Below are positions 1-40,233 of a DNA stretch of 40,986 nt, piece by piece; the first letter of the stretch is position 1, and every line of letters begins with the position of its first letter. Below the pieces are notes generated by a model, which saw only the letters and a program-made list of their open reading frames with translations, did not search any database and was not told where the DNA came from. Position numbers and translations under genes: made by a program. The DNA comes from Candidatus Methylomirabilis sp. (GTDB lineage Bacteria > Patescibacteriota > DYJS01): positions 1-40,986 of the forward strand of contig DYJS01000004.1 in the NCBI GenBank assembly GCA_020723005.1, read 5' to 3'.

Positions 1-35
1 GTTCCAATCCCTTGCAGGGTTTTGGTATTTCTAAT
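1..35 (-). CRISPR. Single CRISPR direct repeat, probably leader-proximal; array presumably continues beyond the left edge
   Basis: Minus strand reads ATTAGAAATACCAAAACCCTGCAAGGGATTGGAAC: CCCT-GCA-AGGG hairpin and a 3' end ATTGGAAC close to the type III ATTGAAAC handle; 150 bp downstream of cas2. Only one copy is visible, so the boundary is approximate. Confidence 0.8.
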
Positions 36-185
36 AGCACCCAATTTTTTCACTAACCTATCCGTGCGAAAAATCAATTTTTGGATTAAGAAAATTTTTT
101 TGAACAAAAATTCAAAAAATAAATAAATTATAAAATTAAAATTGTTGATTTTTAATGTGCTAATGGATATTGGATTCACTTTTTA
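36..185 (-). promoter_or_regulatory. Putative CRISPR leader
   Basis: AT-rich non-coding stretch between the cas2 stop and the repeat; TATAAT on the minus strand at 127-132. Confidence 0.65.
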
Positions 186-464
186 CTAAATAAATATAAA
201 ATCTTCATCTTGTGCTAAATCTGGATGATTTTCACCAAACTTTTCTATCTTACTTTTACAACTTTCACACAAAAAGTAAATACGAACACTATCAACTGGC
301 TGAATAATTTCTGCAATTTTTTCTTTCATAGATCTTGCCATCAATTCATCCAATTCGCATTCAAAAACACTCTTTTGCACTCTCTCTCCAAAAGATTTCA
401 TAATTTTTGCAATTTTATTTAATCTTTTCGGTGTTTTTATGTCGTATGTTACAACTAGTTTCAT
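186..464 (-). CDS. cas2: CRISPR-associated endonuclease Cas2
   Basis: MKLVVTYDI...RVQKSVFEC...DSVRIY motifs. ATG at 464 preferred over 506, which overlaps cas1 by 38 nt. Confidence 0.95.
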   Translation of the reverse strand: MKLVVTYDIKTPKRLNKIAKIMKSFGERVQKSVFECELDELMARSMKEKIAEIIQPVDSVRIYFLCESCKSKIEKFGENHPDLAQDEDFIFI

Positions 465-468
465 AGTT

Positions 469-1458
469 TTAGAATTTGAACGGAGTATAGGTATTAACTT
501 TTTCATAAATTAAATCTCTTAAATTTCTTTGTTGCTTAATAATTATATCATAAAACGAAACCTGTTTTTCTTGACCTGGATAATCATATTTTTGAGCGAA
601 TTTTGTATGAAATGCTCGTATCAATGATTTTATTGCTTCTCTATTCATCAAAATTCTTCCATCACTCTCTTTTCTAAATTGTTCTGGCAAAACAATACTT
701 CTTGAAACAAGTCCAAGCACCATTCCATCAATAGAATAACGAAACTCTTCCATCATATCATAAACCAAACTTTTCCTTCCAAAATCAATTTTATGAAAAA
801 ATCCTAAAAAAGGATCAAGTCCAACCTGTCTAATTGCTCCACCAACAAGTTGTGCAAGCAGTGTATATCCAAAAGAAAGCATAGAATTTACCTCATCTTT
901 TGGTGGAAATTTATTTCTTCCAGAAAAAGAAAAAACTTCATTTTCAAAAAGTTTTCCAAATCCTTCAAAATATTTTCTACTTGCCAACCCTTCAATTCCT
1001 AAAAGCTCTTCAGGAGATTTTGCAAAATTTACATTATTTTTAATTTTCTCAATTTCATCCAAAATATATTGTAAATTAACACCTTTATTTCTTTGTAAAA
1101 GTTGTAAATTTCTTCTTGAGTTAGCAATTTTTCCAAGAACAATTAATTTTGAAAAATCTAATTTAAAATCTTCATTTAAAAATTTTTTATACTGCTCAAT
1201 TTTCAGATTTGTGTTTTTTCCAGTGATACTATTTATCTCTCCAATATAATCTCCATTTTCACCAAGAAAAAATATATCTCTATCAGTTTTCAAAAATTCT
1301 TTAATGACTGGAGTTGTGATTGTGATATTTCCAAAAACCACCAAATGGCTAACAGTGTTTATTGGATACTTTTTTTGCACAGATTCATTTTCTAAAATAA
1401 TCTCTCCTTCAGAAAATTTTACTACAGAATTTTGTTCAAAAATATAAATTGGAAACAT
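469..1458 (-). CDS. cas1: CRISPR-associated endonuclease Cas1
   Basis: 329 aa with LLGIEG, NSMLSFGY, GLDPFLGFFH and SLVYDMMEEFR motifs. Confidence 0.97.
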   Translation of the reverse strand: MFPIYIFEQNSVVKFSEGEIILENESVQKKYPINTVSHLVVFGNITITTPVIKEFLKTDRDIFFLGENGDYIGEINSITGKNTNLKIEQYKKFLNEDFKLDFSKLIVLGKIANSRRNLQLLQRNKGVNLQYILDEIEKIKNNVNFAKSPEELLGIEGLASRKYFEGFGKLFENEVFSFSGRNKFPPKDEVNSMLSFGYTLLAQLVGGAIRQVGLDPFLGFFHKIDFGRKSLVYDMMEEFRYSIDGMVLGLVSRSIVLPEQFRKESDGRILMNREAIKSLIRAFHTKFAQKYDYPGQEKQVSFYDIIIKQQRNLRDLIYEKVNTYTPFKF

Positions 1459-1461
1459 TTT

Positions 1462-2856
1462 TTAGATTATTAAATTTTCTAAATCTTTATTTAAAATTTT
1501 GTGCCATTGTTTTTTTATTAATTTTTCATTTTGCAAAATCTTTTCTTGTTCTTTTATAAAATTTTCAATTCCACAAAAATCTGCAAAATCGTTTTCTGTC
1601 AATCCCTCCAACCTGTGAGCAACAAAAGATTCATTCCTTTTTTCCATAAGTTCCTTTAATTGTACAAAAAAAGATTTTTCAAATTTATTATTGTTCAAAG
1701 CATAAAATAAACATATTTTTGCAATAGAATTAAATTGTCTATTTTCATCAAATTCACTTCCCAAGATTTCTTTTATCTTAGATTTTACATCGGTAGTAAA
1801 AAATTCTTTTGCCTTTTCTATTAAAAAACCTCTTTCATCAGTCCATTTAAACTTATAGTTTTTTTCTAAATAAAAATTTACAAAATTATCCCATAAATTA
1901 TAAATTCTAGCAACTGCATCTGTAAATCTTCTCTGTTTGAAATAAATTTTTGTTCCAATCCAAAGATGAAAAATTTTGATTTCAGTTTTTTCAAAGTCTT
2001 CCAAGCTTGATAAGAATTTCAATTTCTCTTTTTTAGAATGTAGTTTTTCTTGTAAAATTTTTGCAGATTCTAAATCAAAAAACAAAATCGAATTTACAAA
2101 TTTTAAAACATTCAAAATTGTTTCTTTATTTGTAAACTCTGCATTTGAATCTTCTAAAATTGATATCGCTGAAGAATACTCATATTTTTTAATCAATTTC
2201 AAAATTGCATCTTGAACAAAATATTTTTTAACTGTATTCTCATAATCAATATAAAAAACTTTTCCATCATCACTAATTCTGCAAACCGATAAATTTTTTA
2301 TCCATTTTACAGCATTTAAAAACAAAGCATTGTTTAGTGCAGGAATCCCAGCAGAGATCAAAATTGTTGTTTCTATATTTTTTAAATTGTATCTTCTTAT
2401 TAAACTTTCATAAAATTCAAAAACTTTTTCCTCATCACTTGTATTAAAATTCACCTCTTCTAAAAAAATCTTACTTTTTTCTCCAAAGATTTTTTCTATT
2501 ATTTTACCTTCAAAAATTGTATCTGAATTACGAAAATTATCTCTTGCATCAATCTGATTTGTTGAAACAATTATTATATCAGAAAATTTCTCCTTTAATT
2601 TAGAAATAATTTCCAAATTTAAATTTTCTTTATATTTATCAAAATTTTTAAAAATTATTTCTGTAATTTCTTTAAATTTTTTTTCACTATCCACAATTTC
2701 CCCTGTTCTTAAATCCTCTCTTTGTTCAAAAAATTCAGGATAAAGTTTTTTAAACTCCAATCTATTGTTTTTATTCAAGTTTTTTCCACCTAAATAAAAT
2801 TTAGAAATTGTTAAATCGCTATTTCCAATATTCGCTATTAAAATTTTTTTTTTCAT
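1462..2856 (-). CDS. csm6: CARF-HEPN cOA-activated ribonuclease (Csm6/Csx1-like)
   Basis: N-terminal CARF-like motifs (ILIANIGNSD, STNQ..SDT, SAGIPA), helical middle region, C-terminal HEPN-like RNESFVAH; lies between cas6 and cas1. Confidence 0.8.
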   Translation of the reverse strand: MKKKILIANIGNSDLTISKFYLGGKNLNKNNRLEFKKLYPEFFEQREDLRTGEIVDSEKKFKEITEIIFKNFDKYKENLNLEIISKLKEKFSDIIIVSTNQIDARDNFRNSDTIFEGKIIEKIFGEKSKIFLEEVNFNTSDEEKVFEFYESLIRRYNLKNIETTILISAGIPALNNALFLNAVKWIKNLSVCRISDDGKVFYIDYENTVKKYFVQDAILKLIKKYEYSSAISILEDSNAEFTNKETILNVLKFVNSILFFDLESAKILQEKLHSKKEKLKFLSSLEDFEKTEIKIFHLWIGTKIYFKQRRFTDAVARIYNLWDNFVNFYLEKNYKFKWTDERGFLIEKAKEFFTTDVKSKIKEILGSEFDENRQFNSIAKICLFYALNNNKFEKSFFVQLKELMEKRNESFVAHRLEGLTENDFADFCGIENFIKEQEKILQNEKLIKKQWHKILNKDLENLII

Positions 2857-2860
2857 ATTT

Positions 2861-3625
2861 TTAATTTAATTTTTTAAATTTTACATTTCCAAAACCAAAA
2901 TTTGTTTTATTTCCAACTCCAAAAAAATCGGAAGTTTTTGCAAGAAGTGCAACAAAATTTTTTAATTTAAAATTTTTTTCATCAATATTTCTAAATTCAA
3001 AAATTGATTCACCAACAAAACCTTCAATAGAAAAATTTCTAAACTTTTTCTTTCTCGTTTCAATTTTAGAAGAAATTTGAAAAAGATTTTTATCAATAAA
3101 ATTTTCAAAATCTCTCTTTTTTTCTTCTTCAAATTTAACTAAATTTGTTTTTAAAAATTTTTTCAAAAGGGAGTTAAAAATTCTTTTCTTTTCTGGAATA
3201 GAAATAATTTCATCACCATTTTTAAAGAAAGTTGGAGAAAAAAATTTGAGAGAAAATGAATTTGTTTCTTTCGCTAAATTTTCCAAAAATTCTAAAGTTG
3301 CAAACTGAGCAAAACGATTAGAAAGATGATTTGTAAAAACTTGTAAAATTTTTATCTTCTCTTTTCCAACAAAAATTTCTTTATTGATGAAAGAAGAAAG
3401 GATCTCTCCTAAAAATTCATCTCCAAAAAAACCAAATTTTATAAAAAATTTTTCATCTTCTACAAAAAATGGAGAGATTGAAAAAGGTTTTCTTTGTTCA
3501 TGAATTTGTGAAGAGATTTCTTTTGGTAAAACCTTTAGAAATGCGGAAAAAAATTGATATCCAGAAAATTTTTTGTCGATTTGAAAAACTATATTGTAAA
3601 ACATTTTGTAAAAACTATTTTTCAA
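2861..3625 (-). CDS. cas6: crRNA-processing endoribonuclease Cas6
   Basis: KPFSISP, FFSPTFFK and the C-terminal G-loop GVGNKTNFGFG. Alternative ATG at 3604. Confidence 0.92.
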   Translation of the reverse strand: MKNSFYKMFYNIVFQIDKKFSGYQFFSAFLKVLPKEISSQIHEQRKPFSISPFFVEDEKFFIKFGFFGDEFLGEILSSFINKEIFVGKEKIKILQVFTNHLSNRFAQFATLEFLENLAKETNSFSLKFFSPTFFKNGDEIISIPEKKRIFNSLLKKFLKTNLVKFEEEKKRDFENFIDKNLFQISSKIETRKKKFRNFSIEGFVGESIFEFRNIDEKNFKLKNFVALLAKTSDFFGVGNKTNFGFGNVKFKKLN

Positions 3626-3646
3626 AAATACAAACTCTTATCTTCC

Positions 3647-3679
3647 TTCAAGATGACAAACTTTTTTTATCATCCTGAA
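3647..3679. repeat. Degenerate inverted repeat between csm4 and cas6, resembling the element at 15290
   Basis: TTCAAGATGACAA ... TTATCATCCTGAA imperfect arms that resemble TCAGGATGACAAA. Confidence 0.45.
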
Positions 3680-3718
3680 AAATTTTTTCTCATCCTAAGA
3701 TTAAAAATCTGAAGATTC

Positions 3719-4711
3719 TTAACTTATTTTTGCTTTTAATGTAAAAGCAGTTGCATTTTGAATCACTTTTTCATTTACGGAGATATTTTTCAAAATTTTA
3801 CCAAGATAATTTTTATTTTCATAATTTTCTCTCTCTTTATCGTTTTTAAAATCTAACACACTTCCAGCAGAAAAAAATAAAATTGGTTTTTTAAAAGGAT
3901 TCTGAGAATTAGAAAACTCTTCTCCAAGTTTTCCATATTTCACAAAAGTTTCCCATTTAGAATTCTCCCCAGTTGGATCACTTTTATCTGGAACAAAATT
4001 TGAAAGCGAAACAACAGAATTATAATCTTGTAAATTTTCTAAATCATTAAAACCAGAAAACTCTTCAAATTTTGGATCTTCCAAAACTCCCATTCCAACA
4101 GATTTTTTCTTTCCAAAACCAGACTCAAAAGATTTTTTTAAATTTTCTTCAACTTCATATAATTCAAAATTTTCTTGATCTAAAATTTTTATAAAAAACA
4201 CAATTCTCATATTTTTTACAAAATATCTTGGAGTTGTTGAAAAAAGTTTTTTTCCTTCAACTGCAATTCCACTTTCTCTGCTAATTTCTACCTGAGTTTT
4301 TAAATCTTCTTCAAAAAAATTTGGAATTTCTAATTTTTCAAAACATTCTTTTGCTTCTTCTAATTTTTTAGAAACAAGATACTTAAAAATCTCTAAATTT
4401 ACAAATTTTTTCTTTTTTAACTCTTTTCCGTTTAGCTTATTTTTAATCCTCTCTAATTTCTCTTCATTTTTTTCAAAAGGAATATGTATCATAGGTTTTG
4501 GCAAGAAAATATCATTTTCATTTTCATAAAATCCATTTGAAATTGTAAAAATCGGTTTTTTTTCAAAATCTTGCAAAAATCCTTCTAAATCTTTTTCAGA
4601 TAAATTTCTTGAAAGTTCCCACACAAAATGCCCAAAAATTGTATCACTATAAAAATCTGTAAGAAATCCAGATTTTGGAGAGAAAGATAGTTTATAAATT
4701 TTATTTGTCAT
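3719..4711 (-). CDS. csm4: Type III-A Csm4 (Cas5-group RAMP)
   Basis: SDTIFGHF, FTISNGF, FLPKP, GFGKKKSVGMG and FSAGSV motifs. Confidence 0.92.
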   Translation of the reverse strand: MTNKIYKLSFSPKSGFLTDFYSDTIFGHFVWELSRNLSEKDLEGFLQDFEKKPIFTISNGFYENENDIFLPKPMIHIPFEKNEEKLERIKNKLNGKELKKKKFVNLEIFKYLVSKKLEEAKECFEKLEIPNFFEEDLKTQVEISRESGIAVEGKKLFSTTPRYFVKNMRIVFFIKILDQENFELYEVEENLKKSFESGFGKKKSVGMGVLEDPKFEEFSGFNDLENLQDYNSVVSLSNFVPDKSDPTGENSKWETFVKYGKLGEEFSNSQNPFKKPILFFSAGSVLDFKNDKERENYENKNYLGKILKNISVNEKVIQNATAFTLKAKIS

Positions 4712-5066
4712 TGGAATATTTTAATCCATCTGATTCTAAAATTTCTCCCAAAATTATACCATTTTGTTTTGCTTCTAAAACAGAATTTCTTAAAGATGCA
4801 GGATCTTTTTTTGAAATTATTACATCAGATCCAACAATTTTTAAATTCTTAGGAAGTTTTGTAAAACCAGATTCTGCAATAATCATCTTTCCTCGAACGA
4901 TTTCAAGGTTTGGAAATGAATTTTCTGACATATTTCTATTTCCAGCACAATTCAAATCTCCACCTATTTCTTTTAAATTACTTATTATTGTTGCATTTTT
5001 TTGGTTTTTGTTTTCTTCATCTTTTCTTCTGAAAATTTTAATTAAAAATTGTATAATGTTTTTCAT
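4701..5066 (-). CDS. Hypothetical 121-aa protein with three LRR/L-domain-like repeats inside the csm operon
   Basis: ATG start, co-oriented, 11-nt overlap with the csm4 start; repeats NLKEIGGDLNC / PNLEIVRGKMII / KNLKIVGSDVII; amphipathic basic N-terminus. Confidence 0.75.
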   Translation of the reverse strand: MKNIIQFLIKIFRRKDEENKNQKNATIISNLKEIGGDLNCAGNRNMSENSFPNLEIVRGKMIIAESGFTKLPKNLKIVGSDVIISKKDPASLRNSVLEAKQNGIILGEILESDGLKYSNDK

Positions 5067-5095
5067 ATTTAATAATTTAATCTTTTAAATCAATT

Positions 5096-6019
5096 TTAAT
5101 TTATTTTAACTTTACACCAACCTAAATGATTTTTATTTTCATCTATAAATGCTGTATGAACATTTTGATTTGAATCATTTCTCGATCTTGGAGATTGTGC
5201 ATCTGTAAATATTTTAAAATAACTTGTTCCACCAAATCCTAAATTTAATATAAATTCATCTTTTTTTAAATTTTGTAAATTAGTTTCAATTTTTTTTAAA
5301 GATTGATAAAAATGATTTTCAAAAACATTAAACCTATTTAATTTTAAAAAATTCTCTAATCCTTTTTTAGCTTTTTCTAACTCTTTACGATAATAATTTT
5401 TAGATTTTTCATTCAAATATAAAATTTGGTTTGAGATATCGTTTAAAACTTCAACTTCAAAAGACTCTCCTACTTTCAGATTTATTGCATAAACATCAAT
5501 CCATTGATTGTTTCTTTTTCCTCTATTTAAAATTTCCACATTCATTTGACCTGCTTTTAAAAAACTATCTCTCATAATTATTTTTGAAAAAGCAGGGTTG
5601 TCGCTAGAGCTTCTTTTCTCTAAAATAGTCAAAAGTGCACCTTTCACACTACTTGCAGGAATATAAAAATTGCCATTTTGATTTGGAAACTCTTTTACTT
5701 CTAAATTGCCATTCAAATTTAGATTATTATATTTTCTCAAAAACATTTCTGAAACAGATATTTTAAAATCAGAAACATCGTCTAAATTTAAATTTTTGTT
5801 TCCAAAAAATTTGAAAAAATAATTTTGAATAGCTCTTACACTTTGATTTTTTCCAATTTCAAAATAACTATATTTTTTTAAAATTTTTTTATGATTTAAT
5901 CTAAAAAATTGATTTTCTTTTTCTGTAACAATGTAATCAATTCCAAAAACAAGTTTATTTCCTGTAGAGATATGAATTGGTGTCAAAGTTTCAAATTGTA
6001 AAATAATTTTATTTTTCAT
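5096..6019 (-). CDS. csm5: Type III-A Csm5 (Cas7-group RAMP)
   Basis: TLTPIHISTG, YIPASSVKGAL, LGFGG and terminal LGWCKV; ATGA overlap with csm3. Confidence 0.88.
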   Translation of the reverse strand: MKNKIILQFETLTPIHISTGNKLVFGIDYIVTEKENQFFRLNHKKILKKYSYFEIGKNQSVRAIQNYFFKFFGNKNLNLDDVSDFKISVSEMFLRKYNNLNLNGNLEVKEFPNQNGNFYIPASSVKGALLTILEKRSSSDNPAFSKIIMRDSFLKAGQMNVEILNRGKRNNQWIDVYAINLKVGESFEVEVLNDISNQILYLNEKSKNYYRKELEKAKKGLENFLKLNRFNVFENHFYQSLKKIETNLQNLKKDEFILNLGFGGTSYFKIFTDAQSPRSRNDSNQNVHTAFIDENKNHLGWCKVKIN

Positions 6020-6630
6020 TTTTTCTCAACTAATTCCAAAATTTCAACTGCACCATATCCACGACTTCCAGAACCTCCTAAATAATCATTTTTCAAAAGC
6101 TCAAAACCTTCTTTTATCAATTTTAGGCTTTTCTCCAAATCATCATCGGTTTCTCCTCGCAAAATTATCTCTATTTCAAATTGGACATCTTTCGGAACTC
6201 TTTCAATAAATCTTGGACCAGCTCCACTTGCTGTGCCAGTTAATCTATCGATACTAACCTCTGCTTTAATTTCATTTTCAATTTCTTCATTTTCATATTT
6301 TTTCTTCCATTCTTCTGTTAGATGTGCATCTCTGAAAATCACTTTTGTATATTTTTTGTTTTCGTTCTCTGTTTTATCTCCACCAGAACCAAAAACTTCA
6401 GCAACCTCTCCGGTTTTTGAAGGGTTACCATTTTTGAAAAGATTTTTTTCTATTTCTAAAAGCGATCTAATTTTTCCTTTCAAACTACTTCCAGGAATAT
6501 ATGGAAGTTTTGAAATTGGATCTTTTACAACATAGCTATCAATTCCTCCGATTTTAAACTGATCGTTTCCTGATCCAATATGAAGACCGGTTTTAACGAT
6601 TAAAATTATTTTATAAATTTTTCTTTTCAT
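6016..6630 (-). CDS. csm3: Type III-A Csm3 (Cas7 backbone RNase)
   Basis: TGLHIGSG, IGGIDS (catalytic Asp retained), PYIPGSSLKGKIRSLLE and YLGGSGSRGYG. Confidence 0.97.
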   Translation of the reverse strand: MKRKIYKIILIVKTGLHIGSGNDQFKIGGIDSYVVKDPISKLPYIPGSSLKGKIRSLLEIEKNLFKNGNPSKTGEVAEVFGSGGDKTENENKKYTKVIFRDAHLTEEWKKKYENEEIENEIKAEVSIDRLTGTASGAGPRFIERVPKDVQFEIEIILRGETDDDLEKSLKLIKEGFELLKNDYLGGSGSRGYGAVEILELVEKK

Positions 6631-6639
6631 AGTTTTAAT

Positions 6640-7266
6640 TTAATCTCTTTTATATTTTGAAAAATAACCAACCAAAGAAAGCATATGCTGATAAAACATC
6701 TCTAAATTTTTTGAGAAATTTTCATCTTGAGATTTGGTAATTATATCAATTCTGTTTCTAAAAATTTCCTTAAATTCCTCTGAAGCTTCTTTTGAGTATT
6801 CAGAAAGAGCAAGAAGAATAAATAACTTCTGTTTAGCAGTTTCTATATTTCCATTTTTTCGAAAATTTTCATAAATTTTAACTATTTCATCATAAAATTT
6901 CCTAAGTTGATTATTTTTCATTCCAGATTTTGCAAGAATGCTTGCTAAATTATCAACATTTCCATAACCATCTGGAGATATAAGCCATTCAAAAATACCT
7001 TCTTCGTCAAAAAAACTATCGATTAAAAAATCTTTCATTTCAAAAAATATTTTTGTAATTAGTCTGTCTCCAAAATTTCTAGGAAAATTAAATCTTTTTT
7101 CTTTTAAATTTTCTTCTGATTCTAAAAGAATTTTAAATTTTCTATATTGACCATAAATTTCTGAAACATCTATTATATTACCTAATTTTTGAAAATATTC
7201 ACAAATATTAAATTTTTGTAAATTTCTATCAATTCTTTCTAATATAATTTTATATTTATATTTCAT
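6640..7266 (-). CDS. csm2: Csm2 small subunit with an extra N-terminal RRM-like domain
   Basis: C-terminal ~130 aa has NQLRKFYDEI and a terminal SLVGYF motif; start overlaps the cas10 stop (ATGA); 208 aa is longer than typical Csm2. Confidence 0.85.
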   Translation of the reverse strand: MKYKYKIILERIDRNLQKFNICEYFQKLGNIIDVSEIYGQYRKFKILLESEENLKEKRFNFPRNFGDRLITKIFFEMKDFLIDSFFDEEGIFEWLISPDGYGNVDNLASILAKSGMKNNQLRKFYDEIVKIYENFRKNGNIETAKQKLFILLALSEYSKEASEEFKEIFRNRIDIITKSQDENFSKNLEMFYQHMLSLVGYFSKYKRD

Positions 7267-9896
7267 TTTCTTAAATTTAATATTACAAATTTTAAAAGCG
7301 ATAAAATATAATTATCTACAAAATTTTTTGATGAGATATCGGTTAATTGATTGCAAAAATCAAAAACTTCTTTTTGCAAAGAATCCTTTAATTCCCCTTG
7401 TCTGTTTTTAAACTCCCTTTCAATTTTGTAAGTTAAAATTGGGTGCCAAATCATTTTTCTAGAGTCTTTTTTCTTTCCTTTCTCTTCAGATTCTTTTTTT
7501 AAAATCATTAAATCATGCAAATCCCGTAGTATTCCAGAACTCATTTTTGGTTTATTTTCCAAATTTTTATCATAATTTTTTCTCCATACAATTACATTAT
7601 TAGCTTCTTTTATAAAATCCCCCACTTCCTCATTTTTTATCACATCACCAAACAAAAATATACTTGCCTTATTTTTGGATTTATGAAAAAAATTAGAATT
7701 TTCTTTTAAGTTTGAAATATCTAATTTATCTTTCTTTGATTCTTTTTGATTTTTTTCCGAACTTTCTGCAACAAATTTTATTGGTGTAGAATGTTTAAAT
7801 GGTGTCGCACTCCAAGAGATGTGAATTTCTGGATTATTGCAAACAAATTTTTCAAATTCTTTATTCAAGTCATCAATCAAATTTAAAAAAGTTTTAGTTT
7901 CATCCTTTTCTCCGTTTCTATCATTTTTAATTTCGTCATTATTTACAAAAAATGGAGAAATCAAAAACAGATCATCTCCACCTGCATAAATTGTGTAAGT
8001 TTTTGGATAATTTTCTTTTAGCCAAAAATTTAGATACTCTGAAAAGAAAGTTTTTAAAAGATCTGACATCTGAGTGATTCGAGAAAGTGTAAAAAGATCT
8101 CTATTTTGAAAATCTTGAGATTTTTCATTTATTGTCCCAGAACTATAATATTCTTTGTTGTCTTGAATCAATGTTTTTTCATTTTGAGACAAAAGATCTG
8201 TTTTTTCATCAACTCTTAATCCTTCTGCAAAAAGTAATCCCAAATTATCAATATCTCCACGAATAGCGATTAAAGGTTTTTCTTCTGCCAATTTTTCAAA
8301 ATCAACAACTTCGTTTAATCCTTCTTTTGTTGTTAAAACATAATTTGCAACATTCAAAAACCTTGTATTTTGCAATTTTTTAATCTCTTCTCCTTCGCTG
8401 TTCTCATTTTTTCTTCCATCTTTTGCCTTTTCAAAAATTTTTTCACGATCTGGATTTATTAAAAGTCTTCTAAAGTTTTCTTTTTTTAAAAAAGAGATCT
8501 CAATTTTTTCATCAAATGAATAAAAAATTTCAAATTCATCTCTTACCATTTTTTCACCAAGGGAAATTTCTAAAAAACAATTTTCACAAATTTTCTTCTC
8601 TCCATTTTCCTCTTGAAGAGTTTTTGATAATTTCTTTGGTTTTTTACAGATTGGACATTTTATATTTTCAAAATCTTCAATATTTTTTTCAAATTCAAAA
8701 TTTCCAACAAAAACATCTTGCCAAGAATTTTCATCCTTTATTAAACTTTCAAATTGATTATTTCTTTCGTCTTGCAAATTTTCTGAAATTGATTCAAAAA
8801 TATCAAAAATATTTTCTTCGTCATCTTTTCCAGAAAAAGCATTTAATCCAAAATCTCTTGAATTCCAAATTGCAAAACGAAGTTCATAAAAATGTTTTTC
8901 TTTCAAAAAAAATTCAACTTTTTTTTTGATGTTTTTAATTAAATTATCAAAATTTTTTAAATCTGGAACAAGAATATAAAATTTCCCACCAGCTTGCATT
9001 AAAAGATTAGCTTCCGTCAAGCCAAATTCATGCAACACAACATCAGAAAAAATTTTCCCATAAATTTGAACCAAAGTACTTCTAGAGCGAAGTCTTTTTG
9101 CAACTTTCTCTCCTTCAATATCTGTAATAAATTTTTGAATTCCTAAAAAATCTCCAACTATAATTTTAAATTTAGTACATTCAATTTTTCTTTCTTTATC
9201 TTCCAATTTCCATTTATAAATACAATGAGAAATTGCAGAAACATCTTTAGAGTGTGTAAAAAGAGAGATATCAGTTTTTTCATTTCCTGTAAAATCTGGA
9301 ATGCTCCAAGTGTAAGTTTTTAAAACTTCTAACAAAAAAGAAATGATATCTTCAAAATTTGTGAAAGTAGAAATTGATTCTAAAGATTTTAACAATTCTT
9401 CAAAAGAAAAATAATGAGTTTGTAAAATGTTATTTTTTTCTTTTGGAATAATTTTTGAAATTTCAAATTTTGATTGATCAAAAAATTTGGTTTCTAATTC
9501 ACTTTGAAAATCTGGATGAATTTTTGTTTTTGAAAAAATTGAAGCCAAAAATCTATGAGAAAAATCTTTAAATTTCCCGTTCTCTGTTTCAACATATTGC
9601 AAATCTTCTCTTTCTGATGCATTTCCATGATCTGCAATCTTTATAATTTGAGTAAAAAGATCTAAATTTTTTTCTTTTGAGTGATGATTTTTAATTATTT
9701 CTAAAAATTTCGAAAAGTTTTCTTCTTTATCTTTATCTTCTAAAATTTTTTTAAAAGTTTCTTTTAAAGAATTTACAAAATCAACTCCAAAATCTGAGTG
9801 AGATTTTTGTTTCGTTTTCTCTGCTCGTTGTTTAAATTTTCCAATATCATGAAAAAGTGATCCAAGAATCAAAATTTTTTCATTAATATTCAACAA
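7263..9896 (-). CDS. cas10: Cas10/Csm1 with HD nuclease and Palm cyclase domains
   Basis: LFHDIGK (HD), GDFLGIQKFI, CPIC/CENC zinc finger, RGDIDNLG and YAGGDDL; TTG start. Confidence 0.97.
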   Translation of the reverse strand: MLNINEKILILGSLFHDIGKFKQRAEKTKQKSHSDFGVDFVNSLKETFKKILEDKDKEENFSKFLEIIKNHHSKEKNLDLFTQIIKIADHGNASEREDLQYVETENGKFKDFSHRFLASIFSKTKIHPDFQSELETKFFDQSKFEISKIIPKEKNNILQTHYFSFEELLKSLESISTFTNFEDIISFLLEVLKTYTWSIPDFTGNEKTDISLFTHSKDVSAISHCIYKWKLEDKERKIECTKFKIIVGDFLGIQKFITDIEGEKVAKRLRSRSTLVQIYGKIFSDVVLHEFGLTEANLLMQAGGKFYILVPDLKNFDNLIKNIKKKVEFFLKEKHFYELRFAIWNSRDFGLNAFSGKDDEENIFDIFESISENLQDERNNQFESLIKDENSWQDVFVGNFEFEKNIEDFENIKCPICKKPKKLSKTLQEENGEKKICENCFLEISLGEKMVRDEFEIFYSFDEKIEISFLKKENFRRLLINPDREKIFEKAKDGRKNENSEGEEIKKLQNTRFLNVANYVLTTKEGLNEVVDFEKLAEEKPLIAIRGDIDNLGLLFAEGLRVDEKTDLLSQNEKTLIQDNKEYYSSGTINEKSQDFQNRDLFTLSRITQMSDLLKTFFSEYLNFWLKENYPKTYTIYAGGDDLFLISPFFVNNDEIKNDRNGEKDETKTFLNLIDDLNKEFEKFVCNNPEIHISWSATPFKHSTPIKFVAESSEKNQKESKKDKLDISNLKENSNFFHKSKNKASIFLFGDVIKNEEVGDFIKEANNVIVWRKNYDKNLENKPKMSSGILRDLHDLMILKKESEEKGKKKDSRKMIWHPILTYKIEREFKNRQGELKDSLQKEVFDFCNQLTDISSKNFVDNYILSLLKFVILNLRK

Positions 9897-9921
9897 ATTT
9901 GTATTTTTCGTTTCAATTTCT

Positions 9922-9965
9922 AAACATCTCTATTTTTTTTTGCAAATAAAAAAATAGAGATGTTT
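9922..9965. promoter_or_regulatory. Perfect 18-bp inverted repeat just upstream of cas10 (operator, attenuator or terminator)
   Basis: AAACATCTCTATTTTTTT-8 nt-AAAAAAATAGAGATGTTT, 25 bp from the cas10 start. The repeat is seen directly; its function is inferred. Confidence 0.6.
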
Positions 9966-10219
9966 TTTACTAAATATATTTTATATTTTTATCTAAAAGA
10001 TCCAAATTTAATTTAAAAGTGTTCTAAAATTTCTTATTACTTAATTTTTAAAAAATAAAAGATGTATATTAAAATTGCAAAATCCAAAAAATTAAAAGAA
10101 GTTCACTTTTTAAAAATAATTTAACACAATCTGAAAAAATAAAATATTTTATGCAAAAAAATTCCAATTTATGTTTTATTTGAGGTTAGTTTTTGAATAA
10201 AATTTACAAGATCTAAAAA

Positions 10220-10480
10220 CTATTTTTCTAATTTTAATGCAAATTTATGAATGATGTTCCAAATTTCAACAATAAACTCTTCTGGTAAATCTAAACCTTT
10301 TCCCAAAGAAATTTTTGAATCCAAAACCTCTTTCCACCTTTTTTCATCAAGAGGTGGAAGATTTCTCTCTTTTTTAAATTTTCCAACTTTCAAAACAACC
10401 CTCATTCTTTCTGCCAAAAGTGAAATTATTGCAGAATCAATGAGATCAATTGATTTTCTAAAATCTTGCAAATCGTTCAT
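10220..10480 (-). CDS. Chorismate mutase type II (AroQ-like), standalone
   Basis: LQDFRKSIDLIDSAIISLLAERM..VGKFK...D.KR pattern. Confidence 0.9.
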   Translation of the reverse strand: MNDLQDFRKSIDLIDSAIISLLAERMRVVLKVGKFKKERNLPPLDEKRWKEVLDSKISLGKGLDLPEEFIVEIWNIIHKFALKLEK

Positions 10481-10553
10481 ATTAAAAATTTAATTTTAAA
10501 AAATTTTAACTATATATTTCTTACAAAAAAAATATTTTTAAAAAATTTATAGA

Positions 10554-11867
10554 TCAAAAAGATTGGGATTTATCAACTTCAAATTCCTTCTTACCAACTT
10601 CTCTTTGATATTTTTGAAACTGAAAAATTGTTAGAATCAAAACAATAAATGTAACAAAATTTGTTGTCATCGCTGTTCCAATATATGAAAATCTTGGAAT
10701 TAAAAATATATTCAAAATTATGCTAACCAAAACCCCAACAAAGGCTGGAAAAATCAAAAAATTCTGTTTTCCACGACTAACTAAAAGATAATTTAAAACA
10801 CTTGTTGGAAAAGAAAAAATTGCAGAAATAACGAGCAAATTTAGTGCAGAAACCGATCCTGTTGCAACAAAATCTTTTCCAAAAATTCGAAAACTCTCTT
10901 TTTGAAAAAAACTTGGATCAGAATCTGTGTAGATATTTATGATATATTTTGAAGTTAAAAATGTGAACAAAACACCAACTATTGCAAGAATTGTCATTAA
11001 AAAAGAAACTTTTTTTGCAAGTTTGATTGCAGAAATTTTTGTTCCTGTTGCAAGAATTGGAAAAAAAGTTCCCATTAAAATTTGTGGAACAATTCCTGTA
11101 AATTCAACAATTCTAAAAGCTGGTCGATAAATTCCAACAGCTGTTTCTGATTTCAAAAAAGAGAGAATCACTGAATCTATTCTAAAATATGCTAAAGTAA
11201 ACATCATCGCAATTCCAAGTGGCAAAGCTTCAATCAAAAAATTTTTCCAAGATGTAAAATCAAAAATAATTTTTACCTTCATCTCTTGCTGAACAAAAAA
11301 CCAAGAAATTGCCAGTGTCACAATATCTCCAATCGTAACAATAAAAATTAAAATCTCTAAACTCCAATTCAAATTTATTCCAACAATTGTCAAAATAAGC
11401 TCTGCAAACCTTCCAACCGTTTCCCCAAAAACAAGTTTCCAAAGTTTAAAATCTACTTGAAAATTTGATGAAAAAACCTGATTAACATCTCCTGCTAATT
11501 GTCCAAAAATTAAAATTAGGATTGACCATTTAATATGCTCATTGTATGGTGTAAAAATCATCAAAAAAAGTGCAAAAATATAAACTACACTTCCAGAAAA
11601 AATTCTAAAACCAAGAAAGTTTCCAAAAACATTTTCTCGTTCGTTTTGAGTTTTAGCTTGTGCCATCATACGAACAAGAATCAGATAAATTCCAAAATCC
11701 AAAATTGTTGCAAAAGTCCAAAGATAAATTTTTGGGATTTCATATTCCCCACTCCCTGAAGCCCCTAAACCACTCGCAACAACTCTAGCTGTTAACAAAA
11801 CAAGAACCACTCCAAAAATTCTACCAACAAGATGAATAATCGCATTTGAATAAACTTTTTTGGACAA
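10554..11867 (-). CDS. Wzx/PST-family polysaccharide flippase
   Basis: Many TM segments; DFGI, RIDSVILS..VGIY and NIFLIPRFSYIGTA motifs. Confidence 0.88.
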   Translation of the reverse strand: MSKKVYSNAIIHLVGRIFGVVLVLLTARVVASGLGASGSGEYEIPKIYLWTFATILDFGIYLILVRMMAQAKTQNERENVFGNFLGFRIFSGSVVYIFALFLMIFTPYNEHIKWSILILIFGQLAGDVNQVFSSNFQVDFKLWKLVFGETVGRFAELILTIVGINLNWSLEILIFIVTIGDIVTLAISWFFVQQEMKVKIIFDFTSWKNFLIEALPLGIAMMFTLAYFRIDSVILSFLKSETAVGIYRPAFRIVEFTGIVPQILMGTFFPILATGTKISAIKLAKKVSFLMTILAIVGVLFTFLTSKYIINIYTDSDPSFFQKESFRIFGKDFVATGSVSALNLLVISAIFSFPTSVLNYLLVSRGKQNFLIFPAFVGVLVSIILNIFLIPRFSYIGTAMTTNFVTFIVLILTIFQFQKYQREVGKKEFEVDKSQSF

Positions 11868-12089: not shown

Positions 12090-13466
12090 TTATTTCCCTA
12101 TACAAAAGTTATGAAAAACTGAATCCAAAATATCTGGTTTAAATTTTTCACCTAAAAGCTCTGAAATTTCATCTAATGCAATTTTCAAGTTTTCTGCAAT
12201 TAGTTCAAGATTTTTCTCTTTTTTTGCAAGATTTAAAGATGAAAAAATTTCAAAAAGCTTCTCTTTTTGTCTCTCTGTGGAAACAATTATACTTTCTTCA
12301 GAAATTTTATCTTCTCCAATCAATTTTTCATAAATTTTTCTTTTGAGATCTTCTATATTTTTTTGAAATTTTACAGAGATCAAAGAAATAGAATTTTTTG
12401 AAAATTTTTTCTCTTCAAAAAATTTTTCAACATCTTTTTTAAAAGAAAAATCTTCATTGTCTATTTTATTTATGACGAATATAAAGTTTTTTATTGAAAG
12501 TTTTAAAGTTTCAAAAATTTTCATAGAGTCTAAAAAATTTTCTTGATCCAAAACCCAAAGCACAACATCAGAAAAACTAATCTCTTCTTTTGATTTTGCA
12601 ATTCCAAAGTTTTCAATTGGATCGGAAGAATTTTCATTTATTCCTGCTGTATCAACCAAAATTATTGGAAGTCCAAAAAGATCAATTTTTGATTCAATCG
12701 TATCTCTCGTTGTTCCCGGAATGTTCGTAACAATCGCTTTTTCCTTTCCAACAAAAAAATTGAAAAGTGAAGATTTTCCAGAATTTGGAAGGCCTGCCAA
12801 AACAACTTTCGCACCTTGTTCCAAAATTTTTCCAATTTTATATGTAGAAATTGTTTTTTCAATCTCTTCTAAAACTTCTTCCAAAATTTTTTTGTTTTCT
12901 GGAAGATCAAAAATTGGCAAATCGTCTTTATCATAAAAATCTAAATTAGCTTCAACCTCTGCTAAAAACTTTGTAATAATTTTTTTCCACTCAAAAATTT
13001 TTTTTGAAAAACCACCTGATAAATTTTCCAAAGATTTTTTTGTTGCAAAATTAGTTGTTGAATGAATGAGATTTGCAACAGATTCTGCTTGAACAAGATC
13101 TATTTTTCCATTTAAAAAAGCTCGTTTAGTAAATTCTCCGGGCTCTGCAATTCTTGCTCCTTTTGAAATTAAAAGAGATAAAATTCTATTTAAAATTATT
13201 GTGTTTCCATGAACCTGAAATTCAACCAAATCTTCTCCCGTATAACTTTTAGGAGATACAAAAAAAATTATTATTCCAGTTTCTACTTTTTCACTTTTAT
13301 CAAAAATATCTGAAATGTGAGCAAATCTTGGTTTTATATCTTTTATTTTTGTAATGCTTTTTGCAATTTTAAAAGAAAGATTTCCTGAAATTCTAACAAT
13401 TCCAATTCCAGAAGTTCCAATTGGTGTAGAAATTGCACAAATTGTATCTGATAAAAAACTTTTTAT
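12090..13466 (-). CDS. mnmE: tRNA modification GTPase MnmE; real start is upstream of the ORF track call
   Basis: Frame stays open from 13229 up to 13475, encoding DTICAISTPIGTSGIGIVRISG and PKSYTGED; also GLPNSGKSS, IPGTTRD, DTAG, NKID and terminal FCIGK. No in-frame ATG/GTG/TTG upstream; ATA at 13464-13466 is the proposed start. Confidence 0.93.
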   Translation of the reverse strand: MKSFLSDTICAISTPIGTSGIGIVRISGNLSFKIAKSITKIKDIKPRFAHISDIFDKSEKVETGIIIFFVSPKSYTGEDLVEFQVHGNTIILNRILSLLISKGARIAEPGEFTKRAFLNGKIDLVQAESVANLIHSTTNFATKKSLENLSGGFSKKIFEWKKIITKFLAEVEANLDFYDKDDLPIFDLPENKKILEEVLEEIEKTISTYKIGKILEQGAKVVLAGLPNSGKSSLFNFFVGKEKAIVTNIPGTTRDTIESKIDLFGLPIILVDTAGINENSSDPIENFGIAKSKEEISFSDVVLWVLDQENFLDSMKIFETLKLSIKNFIFVINKIDNEDFSFKKDVEKFFEEKKFSKNSISLISVKFQKNIEDLKRKIYEKLIGEDKISEESIIVSTERQKEKLFEIFSSLNLAKKEKNLELIAENLKIALDEISELLGEKFKPDILDSVFHNFCIGK

Positions 13467-38263: not shown

Positions 38264-38956
38264 TTAACATTTATATTTCAAAATGTCTGTTTGAATACTT
38301 TTTTTTAAATCATCAATAAATTTATCAAAAGTTTTTACCTTTTCGCTTTCTTCAATTTTCAATTCTGACAAAACATAACTTCCATCAATGTCTGTTTCGA
38401 CGATTGCTCTTCCTTTTTTTGCTGGAATTTTTGTTTTTAAAGTTCCATCTTCGTCTAGGGTGATAAAATAAACTTTTATATGATTTGTTGCTTCATCAGA
38501 TAATAGCTTAAACTTCCAATATCCAGTTTGTGCAATTCGTTCTCGAAGTGTTACTTTACTAGACAAAACAGCAATTACTTCACTATTTTTTGGATTATAA
38601 ATTATCATATCAACATCTGGAAGATGAGAGCCAAATTCACCATAATCAACCAAAAGATTTCTCTTAACCAAACTCAATTCTTTCGATAAATTATTTGATG
38701 ACGATCTTTCCAAACTATTTCCATTTATAATTTCTAAACCTATTGAATGAATTTCGTCTGCAATTATGTATTCAATTAGTTTTTCTAAATTTTTTCCTTT
38801 AAAAGATCTCCAAGATTGCTCATGATCTTTTCCAATAAAATCTTTTTGATGTTGTTTTTTTACATCTTTTAAAACACTAGAAATATATCGATAGGTTTTC
38901 GAACCAAATTTTTTCTTTTTATTTTCATAAATTTTAATTAAATCTTTTATGTTCAT
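38264..38956 (-). CDS. Type II restriction endonuclease (BsaWI/CCGG-family-like PD-(D/E)XK)
   Basis: QSWRSFKGKNLE, PDVD and SSKVTLRERIAQ (R-(D/E)-R motif); 4-nt overlap with the MTase. Confidence 0.8.
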   Translation of the reverse strand: MNIKDLIKIYENKKKKFGSKTYRYISSVLKDVKKQHQKDFIGKDHEQSWRSFKGKNLEKLIEYIIADEIHSIGLEIINGNSLERSSSNNLSKELSLVKRNLLVDYGEFGSHLPDVDMIIYNPKNSEVIAVLSSKVTLRERIAQTGYWKFKLLSDEATNHIKVYFITLDEDGTLKTKIPAKKGRAIVETDIDGSYVLSELKIEESEKVKTFDKFIDDLKKSIQTDILKYKC

Positions 38957-40233
38957 AATTTCTCCATAATTAATATAAATTCTGTTGGATAAACAAAAAC
39001 TTTATTTTCGTCTGTTAATTTCGCAAATTTTCCTGTTTTTTCATCTCTTATTGAAGGTAAATTTTTTGAAGGAATTTCTCGTTTGATAATTTCTACAATT
39101 TTAAAACCCAAATTTTCTAATTGTTCTGTAAAAACTTCTGCATTTAAAATTTCAACTCCTTTTAAACTTGTATTTCCAACAACTATTGCGGTTTTTCCAC
39201 CAACTTTTAAAATTCTTTTCATTTCCAGAAAAACTTCGTTCATTTCGCTAAAATAAATAGAAACTTCCTCAGCGGTTTTTTTATCTTTTTTAAGCAAATC
39301 ATCAATAATCTCTTGTGCGATAAAACTATTTAAAAAAATTTTATCGTTTGAATGATACGAAGATCCAATAAACTTTTTTCTAAATTGAAATAAATCTTCT
39401 GCATAATCAAGCCACAAAATTGAAAGTTGGTGCAAATCTGCATATTCGTAAGATGTTACATAAGGTGGAGATGTTACAATCAAATCAACTGAACAATCTT
39501 TTGCTGGAAAATTTCTTGCATCAGAACAAAAAAGTTCACTTTCAATATCCAAAAAATTTTTCTCTTTTAAAAGGTTGAAAAATTCTAAATTTCCAGAGAT
39601 CATTGATTTAATTTGTTTAAAAAAAGACAAAAACGGATCGTATGGTATTTTTGATAAATCTCTAGTTGGTTTGTTGCTTTTTTGCATCCAAATTGAGCAA
39701 CCTTTTAAAATGTTTGAAAATGCACAAAGAAAAAAATTTTTAATTTGAAGATCATCAATTTTTACAATTTTTGAAAGAATAAATGCAAGTTTCTTTTTTT
39801 CATTTTCTAAAAACCAATAATCGATTCTATCGTATTTTGGTAAAGAAATCTCTAAAGAATCTGAATAAGAATCTAACGAAAATTTTAAATCAATAAAATA
39901 TCTGGAAAGCTTTACTGGTTCGATTGGTGTAATTTTTGATTTTGCAATCAAAATTGCAACTGGGTTTATATCAACACCAATTGATTTTCTACCCATAATT
40001 TTTGACTCAACCAAAGTTGTTCCACATCCACAAAAAGTGTCTGCAACCAAATCGCCTTTTTTCGTATATTTTGAAACAATTCTTGAAACAATTTGAGGAA
40101 TAAATTTTGCAGGATAGTGATGATATCCATGGGTTAAATAAGTTGTATCTTTTCTAGTTTTTTCTGAAAATGACCAAGAAAAATCGATTTGAGCAAATTC
40201 AAATAAATTTTTTATTTTATTCTTGTCGGTCAC
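38953..40233 (-). CDS. N4-cytosine DNA methyltransferase
   Basis: THGYHHYPAKF; motif I DTFCGCGTT precedes motif IV VTSPPY; GTG start. Confidence 0.88.
   Translation of the reverse strand: MTDKNKIKNLFEFAQIDFSWSFSEKTRKDTTYLTHGYHHYPAKFIPQIVSRIVSKYTKKGDLVADTFCGCGTTLVESKIMGRKSIGVDINPVAILIAKSKITPIEPVKLSRYFIDLKFSLDSYSDSLEISLPKYDRIDYWFLENEKKKLAFILSKIVKIDDLQIKNFFLCAFSNILKGCSIWMQKSNKPTRDLSKIPYDPFLSFFKQIKSMISGNLEFFNLLKEKNFLDIESELFCSDARNFPAKDCSVDLIVTSPPYVTSYEYADLHQLSILWLDYAEDLFQFRKKFIGSSYHSNDKIFLNSFIAQEIIDDLLKKDKKTAEEVSIYFSEMNEVFLEMKRILKVGGKTAIVVGNTSLKGVEILNAEVFTEQLENLGFKIVEIIKREIPSKNLPSIRDEKTGKFAKLTDENKVFVYPTEFILIMEKL

What the first reader, a model, noticed from the sequence alone, without database searches (positions are those of the whole stretch)
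4701..5066. Unknown LRR/L-domain-like repeat protein embedded in the Csm effector genes
Seen: 121 aa, stop overlapping the csm4 start, three ~23-aa repeats of the form (P/K)NLx(I/V)xGxxxI, and an amphipathic basic N-terminus MKNIIQFLIKIFRRK. It matches no Cas, CARF, SAVED or ring-nuclease family I recognise. Inference: a co-expressed accessory protein such as a membrane tether, phage-protein sensor or anti-CRISPR decoy. Best candidate here for an undescribed type III component.
Basis: partly seen in the sequence, partly recalled or inferred. Interest (0 to 1): 0.8.

Follow-up and report, generated by a model that had tools for sequence, protein, structure and literature searches.

The report
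Stray mini-LRR gene inside Csm operon
A small leucine-rich-repeat-like protein gene really does sit between csm5 and csm4 of a type III-A CRISPR operon, but its relatives elsewhere are never next to CRISPR genes, so it looks like a one-off insertion and not a new CRISPR component.

Summary
Window 5066-4701 (minus strand) is an intact 121-aa ORF between csm5 and csm4 of a complete type III-A operon. It has three LRR/L-domain-like coils, and its stop overlaps the csm4 start by 11 nt.

It belongs to a sparse, uncharacterised family of standalone 83-113-aa mini-solenoids. Those I could place taxonomically are in Bacteroidota.

The proposed role as a new type III component is not backed by comparison:
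- None of 7 homologue loci carries cas genes.
- None of 5 genomes holding a homologue has a Cas10 palm domain above the Pfam cut-off.
- None of 4 inspected related Csm loci, and none of 10 Csm4-positive Bacteroidota genomes, has the gene.
- None of 400 other sampled genomes of the window's own phylum has the family.

Composition and codon usage match the host, and no terminator separates the gene from its neighbours, so co-expression with the csm genes is likely.

Best reading (about 0.55): a horizontally acquired protein-binding mini-LRR, inserted at the csm5-csm4 junction and kept as an operon passenger. A lineage-specific Csm add-on remains possible (about 0.2-0.25) and untested.

Interest is low to moderate.

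The parts
4701..5066 (-). ORF121 (P0001), 121 aa: mini LRR/receptor-L-domain-like solenoid protein
4989..5066 (-). Residues 1-26: basic amphipathic N-terminal extension not shared by any of 18 aligned relatives. It is either lineage-specific or, if translation starts at ATA codon 27 or 28, not translated.
   Evidence: alignment A2; helix 2-21 in the model, block pLDDT 84-70; pI 10.2; probable ATA start in mnmE of the same window
4803..4988 (-). Residues 27-88: three solenoid coils with NL[EK]x[IV] at residues 30, 53 and 74
   Evidence: (block pLDDT 93-98)
4728..4802 (-). Residues 89-113: conserved capping helix (DPxSL...AKxxGI) and final strand
4701..4727 (-). Residues 114-121 plus stop: a tail that departs from the family's usual ...F(Y)CD end and runs into csm4. 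The 11-nt overlap with the csm4 start is 4701-4711.
5067..5095 (-). 29-nt spacer between the csm5 stop and the ORF121 start. It carries GATTAAATTA, like the start regions of csm3 and csm6.
5096..6019 (-). csm5 (307 aa, full length)
3719..4711 (-). csm4 (330 aa)
6016..6630 (-). csm3
6640..7266 (-). csm2 (208 aa; the Csm2 domain covers only residues 105-206)
7263..9896 (-). cas10/csm1 with HD domain
2861..3625 (-). cas6
1462..2856 (-). csm6-like gene (HEPN; weak matches below the curated cut-offs)
186..1458 (-). cas1 (469-1458) and cas2 (186-506)

Best explanation
ORF121 is a member of a rare, patchily distributed family of standalone cytoplasmic mini-solenoids. Each has three LRR/receptor-L-domain-type coils capped by one helix and one strand, about 90 aa in all.

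A copy was acquired horizontally and landed at the csm5-csm4 junction of this small-genome bacterium's type III-A operon. It has since taken on the host's composition.

It is transcribed with the csm genes, and csm4 now starts inside its 3' end. Translation of csm4 is therefore probably coupled to it. That coupling alone could keep the frame open.

The protein is most likely a generic protein-binding module whose ancestral job has nothing to do with type III CRISPR. Here it is a tolerated operon passenger and not a conserved Csm subunit.

Shown: gene reality, fold class, operon position, lack of cas linkage in relatives, and absence from related Csm loci.

Inferred: horizontal origin, co-transcription, translational coupling and passenger status.
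For: Family:
- An exhaustive HMMER search gave 49 other proteins at E <= 1e-3. Twenty are 49-113 aa and standalone; 29 are 183-2132-aa multi-repeat proteins.
- Recep_L_domain was found in 9 of the 19 long ones scanned.
- The AlphaFold2 model has mean pLDDT 87.2.
- Best structural matches are FlrP (8z5u_0, Z 7.8, rmsd 2.5 over 73 residues) and IGF1R, insulin-receptor and EGFR L domains (Z 5.4-5.6).
- The family profile hits FlrP at E 7.9e-8.

No cas linkage:
- All 7 homologue loci (L002, L003, L011-L014, L027) lack cas genes.
- The Cas10 palm domain is above the cut-off in 0 of 5 homologue-bearing genomes.

Absent from related Csm loci:
- L018 and L019, from the same phylum, have csm3-csm5-csm4 with nothing between csm5 and csm4.
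- L038 and L039, from Bacteroidota, have no such ORF.
- The 10 of 401 Bacteroidota genomes with a Csm4 hit do not overlap the 3 of 401 with a family hit.

Foreign to the lineage:
- The family profile hits only G000 among 401 sampled genomes of its phylum.
- The window genome has no paralogue.

Settled in the host:
- GC is 0.251 and GC3 0.123, like the neighbouring genes.
- Synonymous codon usage sits at the 60th percentile of genome pieces.

Operon:
- No terminator-like site was found in 3400-10300.
- The N- and C-termini depart from the family consensus exactly where the gene abuts its neighbours.
Against: - In a genome of about 0.75 Mb, an intact, ameliorated ORF inside an essential-order effector operon argues for retention by selection. 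Passenger status is a default and has not been demonstrated.
- All comparison Csm loci are distant (Csm4 identity <= 41%). When the insertion happened, and whether close relatives of this locus share it, is unknown.
- Three of the 7 homologue loci are contigs of only 1-2 kb, so cas genes further away cannot be excluded there.
- Context is unknown for about 13 further short-family clusters.
- Three of the 4 homologue loci with 10 kb or more of context lie beside defence or mobile genes. A role in phage-host conflict for the family is therefore possible.
Confidence: 0.55

Rival explanations
1. Lineage-specific exapted accessory subunit. The mini-LRR binds the Csm complex, or bridges it to a host or phage protein, for example as an adaptor at the Csm5 or Csm4 end.
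For: - It sits inside the effector gene block, overlaps the csm4 start and has host-like codon usage.
- LRR folds are protein-binding scaffolds. The nearest solved relative, FlrP, is a small LRR brace bolted onto a large machine (passages of bioRxiv 10.64898/2025.12.04.692373).
- The core residues conserved in its closest relatives are retained.
Against: - No other type III locus examined has it.
- The family lives in genomes without detectable Cas10.
- No known Cas model is matched.
Confidence: 0.22
2. Inhibitor or self-regulator: an anti-CRISPR-like protein of mobile-element origin that has been captured and now damps the Csm complex.
For: - It is small, unannotated and horizontally mobile.
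- ESM Atlas look-alike clusters carry mostly viral (Uroviricota) taxon labels. This is a lead only.
- Relatives lie in variable, defence-rich or mobile-rich islands in 3 of the 4 loci with long context.
Against: - tblastn with four family proteins found no match in 50,697 phage records. P0001 found none in plasmids.
- Three IMG/VR scans gave nothing.
- None of the 19 family members matches a PHROG.
- No Aca-like HTH gene lies beside it in the window.
Confidence: 0.07
3. A non-functional relic: an open but untranslated or decaying remnant of an insertion.
For: - It is a singleton in its phylum.
- Its termini are unlike the family's.
- Pairwise dN/dS for the window copy is higher (0.22-0.39) than between some other members (0.05-0.12), although dS is saturated.
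Against: - The frame has no stop or frameshift over 121 codons.
- It is 65% identical to its nearest relative, with the invariant core positions kept.
- The fold prediction is confident over the core.
- The start region resembles those of neighbouring genes.
Confidence: 0.1

Closest known systems
Receptor L domain (Pfam PF01030; L1 and L3 domains of EGFR, insulin receptor and IGF1R)
   Same: - The Pfam model is matched just above its gathering score (23.0 against 21.8 bits).
- It has right-handed solenoid coils with a similar repeat.
- Structural Z is 5.4-5.6 at 21-24% identity over about 90 residues.
   Different: - It has only three coils (46 of 112 profile positions).
- It has a single Cys and no flanking Cys-rich regions.
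- It is cytoplasmic and standalone.
- Z values of this size are common for repeat folds (note).
FlrP, the LRR protein bound to the rod of the Vibrio polar flagellar motor (PDB 8z5u chain 0)
   Same: - It is the best solved match: Z 7.8, rmsd 2.5 A over 73 residues, and profile E 7.9e-8.
- It is a small LRR that works as an add-on to a large complex (passages read).
   Different: - FlrP is 199 aa with more coils, has a Sec signal peptide and is periplasmic.
- ORF121 has no signal peptide or membrane span.
- Identity is 18%.
BspA-type / L-domain multi-repeat surface proteins of Bacteroidota (LRR_5, LRR_EndoS, Por_Secre_tail)
   Same: The repeat type is shared. Long hits of the HMMER search carry Recep_L_domain, LRR_5 or LRR_EndoS, and some carry a T9SS sorting domain.
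   Different: Those proteins are 183-2132 aa, have many repeats and are often secreted. ORF121 and its 20 short relatives are three-coil standalone proteins with a distinctive C-terminal helix cap.
Known type III accessory proteins (Csm6/Csx1 and other CARF or SAVED effectors, ring nucleases)
   Same: It is encoded inside a type III-A locus that also has a Csm6-like gene.
   Different: - There is no CARF, SAVED, HEPN or nuclease match.
- Its homologues are not cas-linked.

Membership tests
Receptor L domain (PF01030) | Pfam model matched above the gathering score | tested here: met
   E 9.3e-5, 23.0 bits against a cut-off of 21.8, over residues 18-63 and profile positions 16-61 of 112. The pass is marginal and partial. 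The close relative in L002 scores below the cut-off (18.2 bits), and 0 of 14 short relatives scanned matched at E <= 0.001.
Receptor L domain (PF01030) | Full single-stranded right-handed beta-helix of about 5-6 turns | tested here: not met
   The model shows three coils (residues 27-88) plus one capping helix and strand. The alignment to L domains covers about 90 residues at Z 5.4-5.6.
LRR-type solenoid proteins (FlrP-like / BspA-like repeats) | Tandem leucine-rich coils of 20-24 residues with a conserved N/L/P pattern | tested here: met
   Units lie at residues 30, 53 and 74; 0 of 20000 shuffles reached three copies. The profile matches FlrP at E 7.9e-8. VIA Z is 7.8 to 8z5u_0, and many LRR proteins score Z 4-6.
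Type III CRISPR-Cas core or accessory protein | Match to a described Cas or accessory family | tested here: not met
   NCBIfam and PADLOC gave 0 families at E <= 0.1.
Type III CRISPR-Cas core or accessory protein | Homologues recurrently encoded next to cas genes | tested here: not met
   None of 7 homologue loci has cas genes; three of these are contigs of only 1-2 kb. None of 5 homologue-bearing genomes has Cas10 palm above the cut-off. Context is unknown for the remaining short clusters.
Type III CRISPR-Cas core or accessory protein | Present in related type III-A loci | tested here: not met
   None of 4 inspected loci has it (L018, L019, L038, L039). None of the 10 Csm4-positive genomes among 401 Bacteroidota has a family hit. 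All relatives are <= 41% identical in Csm4.
Type III CRISPR-Cas core or accessory protein | Physical association with the effector, or an effect on immunity | not testable with these tools
   This needs co-purification and deletion assays.
Anti-CRISPR protein | Encoded by phages or other mobile elements, usually beside an aca regulator | tested here: inconclusive
   No hits in phage or plasmid records, IMG/VR scans or PHROGs (0 of 19). ESM Atlas look-alike clusters carry viral labels. Inhibition itself cannot be tested here.

The most novel reading that the evidence does not exclude
ORF121 is a genuine new accessory subunit of a type III-A effector. On this reading a mobile three-coil mini-LRR was recruited in one small-genome lineage to dock onto the Csm5/Csm4 part of the complex and link it to a partner, either a phage protein it senses or a host factor it recruits. 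That would make it the first LRR-type component of a CRISPR effector.
Probability: 0.18. Interest if true: 0.65.

Novelty: new member of a known kind. Interest (0 to 1): 0.3.

Why it matters
If the gene were a working Csm add-on, it would show that type III effectors can recruit LRR-type recognition modules. That domain is central to eukaryotic innate immunity but is not known in CRISPR effectors.

As the evidence stands, the finding matters mainly in two ways:
- It is a caution. Position inside a cas operon is not enough to call a gene CRISPR-associated.
- It records an uncharacterised family of roughly 90-aa standalone mini-solenoids that move between genomes. In 3 of the 4 loci with long context, they sit in variable islands rich in defence or mobile genes.

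Tried and rejected
Complex prediction:
- Complex prediction with Csm4 (A6), Csm5 (A5) and ORF121 (A2) as the partner gave 'no answer' (score 0.00, mark 0.32). This is no evidence either way.
- The queue was full many times before the job was accepted.

Searches that found nothing:
- The search for homologous proteins with 'longer' lengths found no fused forms among 213 candidates.
- Genome contigs with A1 found nothing.
- Viral contigs with A3, A4 and A1 found nothing.
- Phage tblastn with P0001, P0015, P0022 and P0013 found nothing. Plasmid tblastn with P0001 found nothing.
- PHROGs matched 0 of 19 family members.
- Foldseek against the PDB gave nothing at E <= 1e-3. The best BFVD hit was a phage LRR protein at E 2.7e-3.
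- Rfam over window 1-10600 gave one sub-threshold chance hit.

Ideas rejected:
- An alternative genetic code. Table 4 does not extend the cas genes sensibly.
- The antisense ORF 4675-5088(+) of 137 aa. The antisense frame is not conserved-open in relatives.
- Truncation of Csm5 by the insertion. Csm5 aligns to its conserved C-terminal LGW motif.
- A membrane anchor.
- A Shine-Dalgarno test of the start. This genome shows no SD enrichment.

Uninformative analyses:
- dN/dS, because dS is saturated.
- The family tree, which places P0001 with P0002 and P0003 at only 88/86 support.

Tools not available:
- The search of earlier findings was not open.

Literature:
- 'type III CRISPR' + 'leucine-rich repeat' + 'accessory' returned 5 papers, 4 listed. 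I saw the listing only; the four listed are broad overview papers, and none of the titles or abstract starts shown concerns LRR proteins in type III loci.
- 'Candidate Phyla Radiation' + 'type III-A' + 'Csm5' + 'hypothetical protein' returned 0 papers.
- The CRISPR-linked-gene census preprint 10.1101/270033 has no 'LRR' or 'leucine' in its main text. Its supplements were not seen and could list such a gene.
- PMC6509639 passages on CPR type III-A systems do not mention an inserted gene.

Full report
WHAT IS THERE

The minus strand of window 186-9896 carries a complete type III-A locus, in this order:
- cas10 with an HD domain (9896-7263)
- csm2 (7266-6640)
- csm3 (6630-6016)
- csm5 (6019-5096)
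- a 121-aa ORF (5066-4701)
- csm4 (4711-3719)
- cas6 (3625-2861)
- a csm6-like gene (2856-1462)
- cas1 (1458-469)
- cas2 (506-186)

The ORF (P0001) starts 29 nt after the csm5 stop, and its last 11 nt overlap the csm4 start. Table 11 fits the locus; table 4 adds nothing sensible.

THE REPEATS AND THE FOLD

- Three units begin at residues 30, 53 and 74 (NLKEI, NLEIV, NLKIV). Three copies of NL[EK]x[IV] were reached in 0 of 20000 shuffles.
- Pfam's Recep_L_domain is matched marginally: 23.0 bits against a cut-off of 21.8.
- NCBIfam and PADLOC match nothing.
- With a 19-sequence family alignment, AlphaFold2 gives a confident model with mean pLDDT 87.2. It has an N-terminal helix (residues 2-21, lower confidence), a three-coil solenoid (block pLDDT 93-98), a capping helix (90-101) and a last strand.
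- Foldseek finds nothing significant in the PDB, although EGFR-family L domains head the list.
- The exhaustive VIA search puts FlrP first (8z5u_0, Z 7.8, rmsd 2.5 A, 73 residues). IGF1R, insulin-receptor and EGFR L domains follow (Z 5.4-5.6), then many LRR proteins.
- The family profile also hits FlrP by sequence at E 7.9e-8. FlrP is a periplasmic LRR brace on the Vibrio polar flagellar rod (passages read).
- There is no membrane span, and the N-terminal 15 residues are amphipathic and basic.

So 'LRR/L-domain-like' is right.

IT IS A REAL GENE WITH A FAMILY

- The word-indexed search found three relatives of 68-88 aa at 57-65% identity and no longer, fused forms.
- The exhaustive HMMER search found 49 other proteins at E <= 1e-3. 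Twenty are short (49-113 aa) and align to residues ~27-112. The other 29 are 183-2132-aa multi-repeat proteins.
- Of the 19 long ones scanned, 9 carry Recep_L_domain. Some carry LRR_5, LRR_EndoS or a T9SS sorting domain.
- The short proteins share the three coils and a DPxSL...AKxxGIIKGxI cap.
- P0001 alone has the 26-residue N-terminal extension, and it has a divergent C-terminal tail that runs into csm4.
- The sense frame has no internal stop in any of the 6 relatives checked, while the antisense frame is broken.
- Pairwise dN/dS in the family is 0.05-0.39, with saturated dS.

WHERE THE RELATIVES LIVE

I obtained context for 7 homologue loci:
- two metagenome contigs (L002, L003)
- four GTDB records named as Flavobacteriales, Cytophagaceae and Aquirufa (L011-L014)
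- one further Bacteroidota genome (L027)

None has a cas gene among the ORFs scanned. BLASTP of all window ORFs against six of these loci matched only ORF121. Three of the loci are contigs of only 1-2 kb.

Neighbours differ from locus to locus:
- L011 and L012: a TPR protein 4 nt upstream.
- L002: a translationally coupled trio at the edge of a low-GC island, followed by C5-methylase/AAA/DUF2357-PD-(D/E)XK genes.
- L014: Z1, DUF4420, DndB-like and WYL genes.
- L013: an IS3 transposase and a zeta-toxin-like gene.
- L027: glycosyltransferases.

At genome level:
- The Cas10 palm domain is above the cut-off in 0 of the 5 genomes that hold a family member.
- The family is sparse: 3 of 401 sampled Bacteroidota and 2 of 25 in one order.
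- In the window's own phylum it was found only in the window genome among 401 sampled.
- The window genome has no paralogue.

RELATED CSM LOCI

Window Csm4 finds only 2 other genomes among 400 of its phylum. Both loci (L018, L019) share the unusual csm3-csm5-csm4 order. Csm5 and csm4 there are adjacent (an 18-nt gap) or overlapping, with no gene between them.

In Bacteroidota, 10 of 401 genomes have a Csm4 hit, and none of these ten is among the three with a family hit. The best of them (L038, 40% identity) and L039 have the canonical csm3-csm4-csm5 order and no small insert.

The closest Csm4 in the large protein database is 41% identical. No close relative of this locus is available, so the age of the insertion is unknown. 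Window Csm5 is full length.

HOW SETTLED THE GENE IS

- GC (0.251) and GC3 (0.123) equal those of its neighbours.
- Synonymous codon choice is typical of the genome, at the 60th percentile.
- No terminator-like site lies in 3400-10300, and promoter-like hits are not clearly above shuffles in this AT-rich DNA.
- The genome shows no Shine-Dalgarno enrichment. An AT-rich word (TTAAATT) is commoner before starts (26 of 282, against 0.018 in background) and precedes ORF121, csm3 and csm6.

One caveat concerns the start. The mnmE gene of this window has no ATG, GTG or TTG at its conserved N-terminus and probably starts at ATA. ORF121 has ATA codons at positions 27-28, exactly where relatives begin. 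The N-terminal extension therefore may or may not be translated.

READING

The evidence fits a horizontally acquired mini-LRR gene that landed at the csm5-csm4 junction. It was remodelled at both ends, is now co-transcribed with the csm genes, and is probably translationally coupled to csm4.

Its family has no dependence on type III CRISPR. The default reading is therefore a tolerated passenger whose open frame may be maintained partly because csm4 initiation lies inside it (confidence about 0.55).

A lineage-specific add-on to Csm remains possible (about 0.22), because retention inside an effector operon of a 0.75-Mb genome is suggestive. An inhibitor or regulator reading (about 0.07) and a dead relic (about 0.1) are less likely.

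A phage origin hinted at by ESM Atlas labels was not confirmed by any sequence search.

LIMITS

- Expression could not be checked.
- No CRISPR array is assembled in this genome. Only a possible repeat remnant lies at the contig start, and it has no second copy.
- Contexts of most short-family clusters could not be fetched.
- Supplements of the papers were not seen.
- That the organism is a CPR/Patescibacteria-type bacterium is my inference. It rests on genome size (0.75 Mb, 91% complete) and the 0.7-2 Mb sizes of the phylum-mates listed.

Noticed in passing
window 5096-6630 and 3719-4711; L018, L019: The effector genes run csm3-csm5-csm4, not the canonical csm3-csm4-csm5. Two distant phylum-mates share this order. 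The Bacteroidota relatives keep the canonical order.
   Followed up: partly
window 12090-13466 (-): mnmE has no ATG, GTG or TTG at its conserved N-terminus (SDTICAISTP...). The only plausible start is ATA at 13466-13464, right after a TAA stop. This genome may use ATA starts.
   Followed up: partly
window 1-36: The contig begins 185 nt beyond cas2 with a GC-richer stretch that could be the first CRISPR repeat. It has no second copy, and no array is assembled in the 25 contigs.
   Followed up: partly
window 6640-7266 (-): Csm2 is 208 aa, but the Csm2 domain covers only residues 105-206. The N-terminal ~100 residues are unexplained.
   Followed up: no
window 1462-2856 (-): The Csm6-like protein (464 aa) matches the Csm6 HEPN, 6H and TIGR02672 models only below their curated cut-offs. 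It is a divergent CARF/HEPN effector.
   Followed up: no
window 38264-40233 (-): A BsaWI-like restriction endonuclease lies next to an N6/N4 DNA methylase, forming a type II R-M pair.
   Followed up: no
L002 9549-10614: The homologue is the middle gene of a tightly overlapping trio: a 145-aa unknown protein, the 88-aa mini-LRR and a ~120-aa membrane protein. The trio sits at the edge of a low-GC island (28-36% against ~45%). C5-methylase, AAA and DUF2357/PD-(D/E)XK genes follow.
   Followed up: partly
L011 37-730; L012 75-1383: In two Flavobacteriales MAGs a TPR-repeat protein ends 4 nt before the mini-LRR gene, which suggests a two-gene unit.
   Followed up: no
L014 190-5142 and 11597-12427: The Aquirufa homologue lies in a region with Z1-domain, DUF4420 (PD-(D/E)XK), DndB-like and WYL-HTH genes, which looks like a defence island.
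   Followed up: no
whole genome G000: There is no Shine-Dalgarno enrichment before the starts of long ORFs. AT-rich words such as TTAAATT are about five-fold commoner there than in the genome at large.
   Followed up: partly
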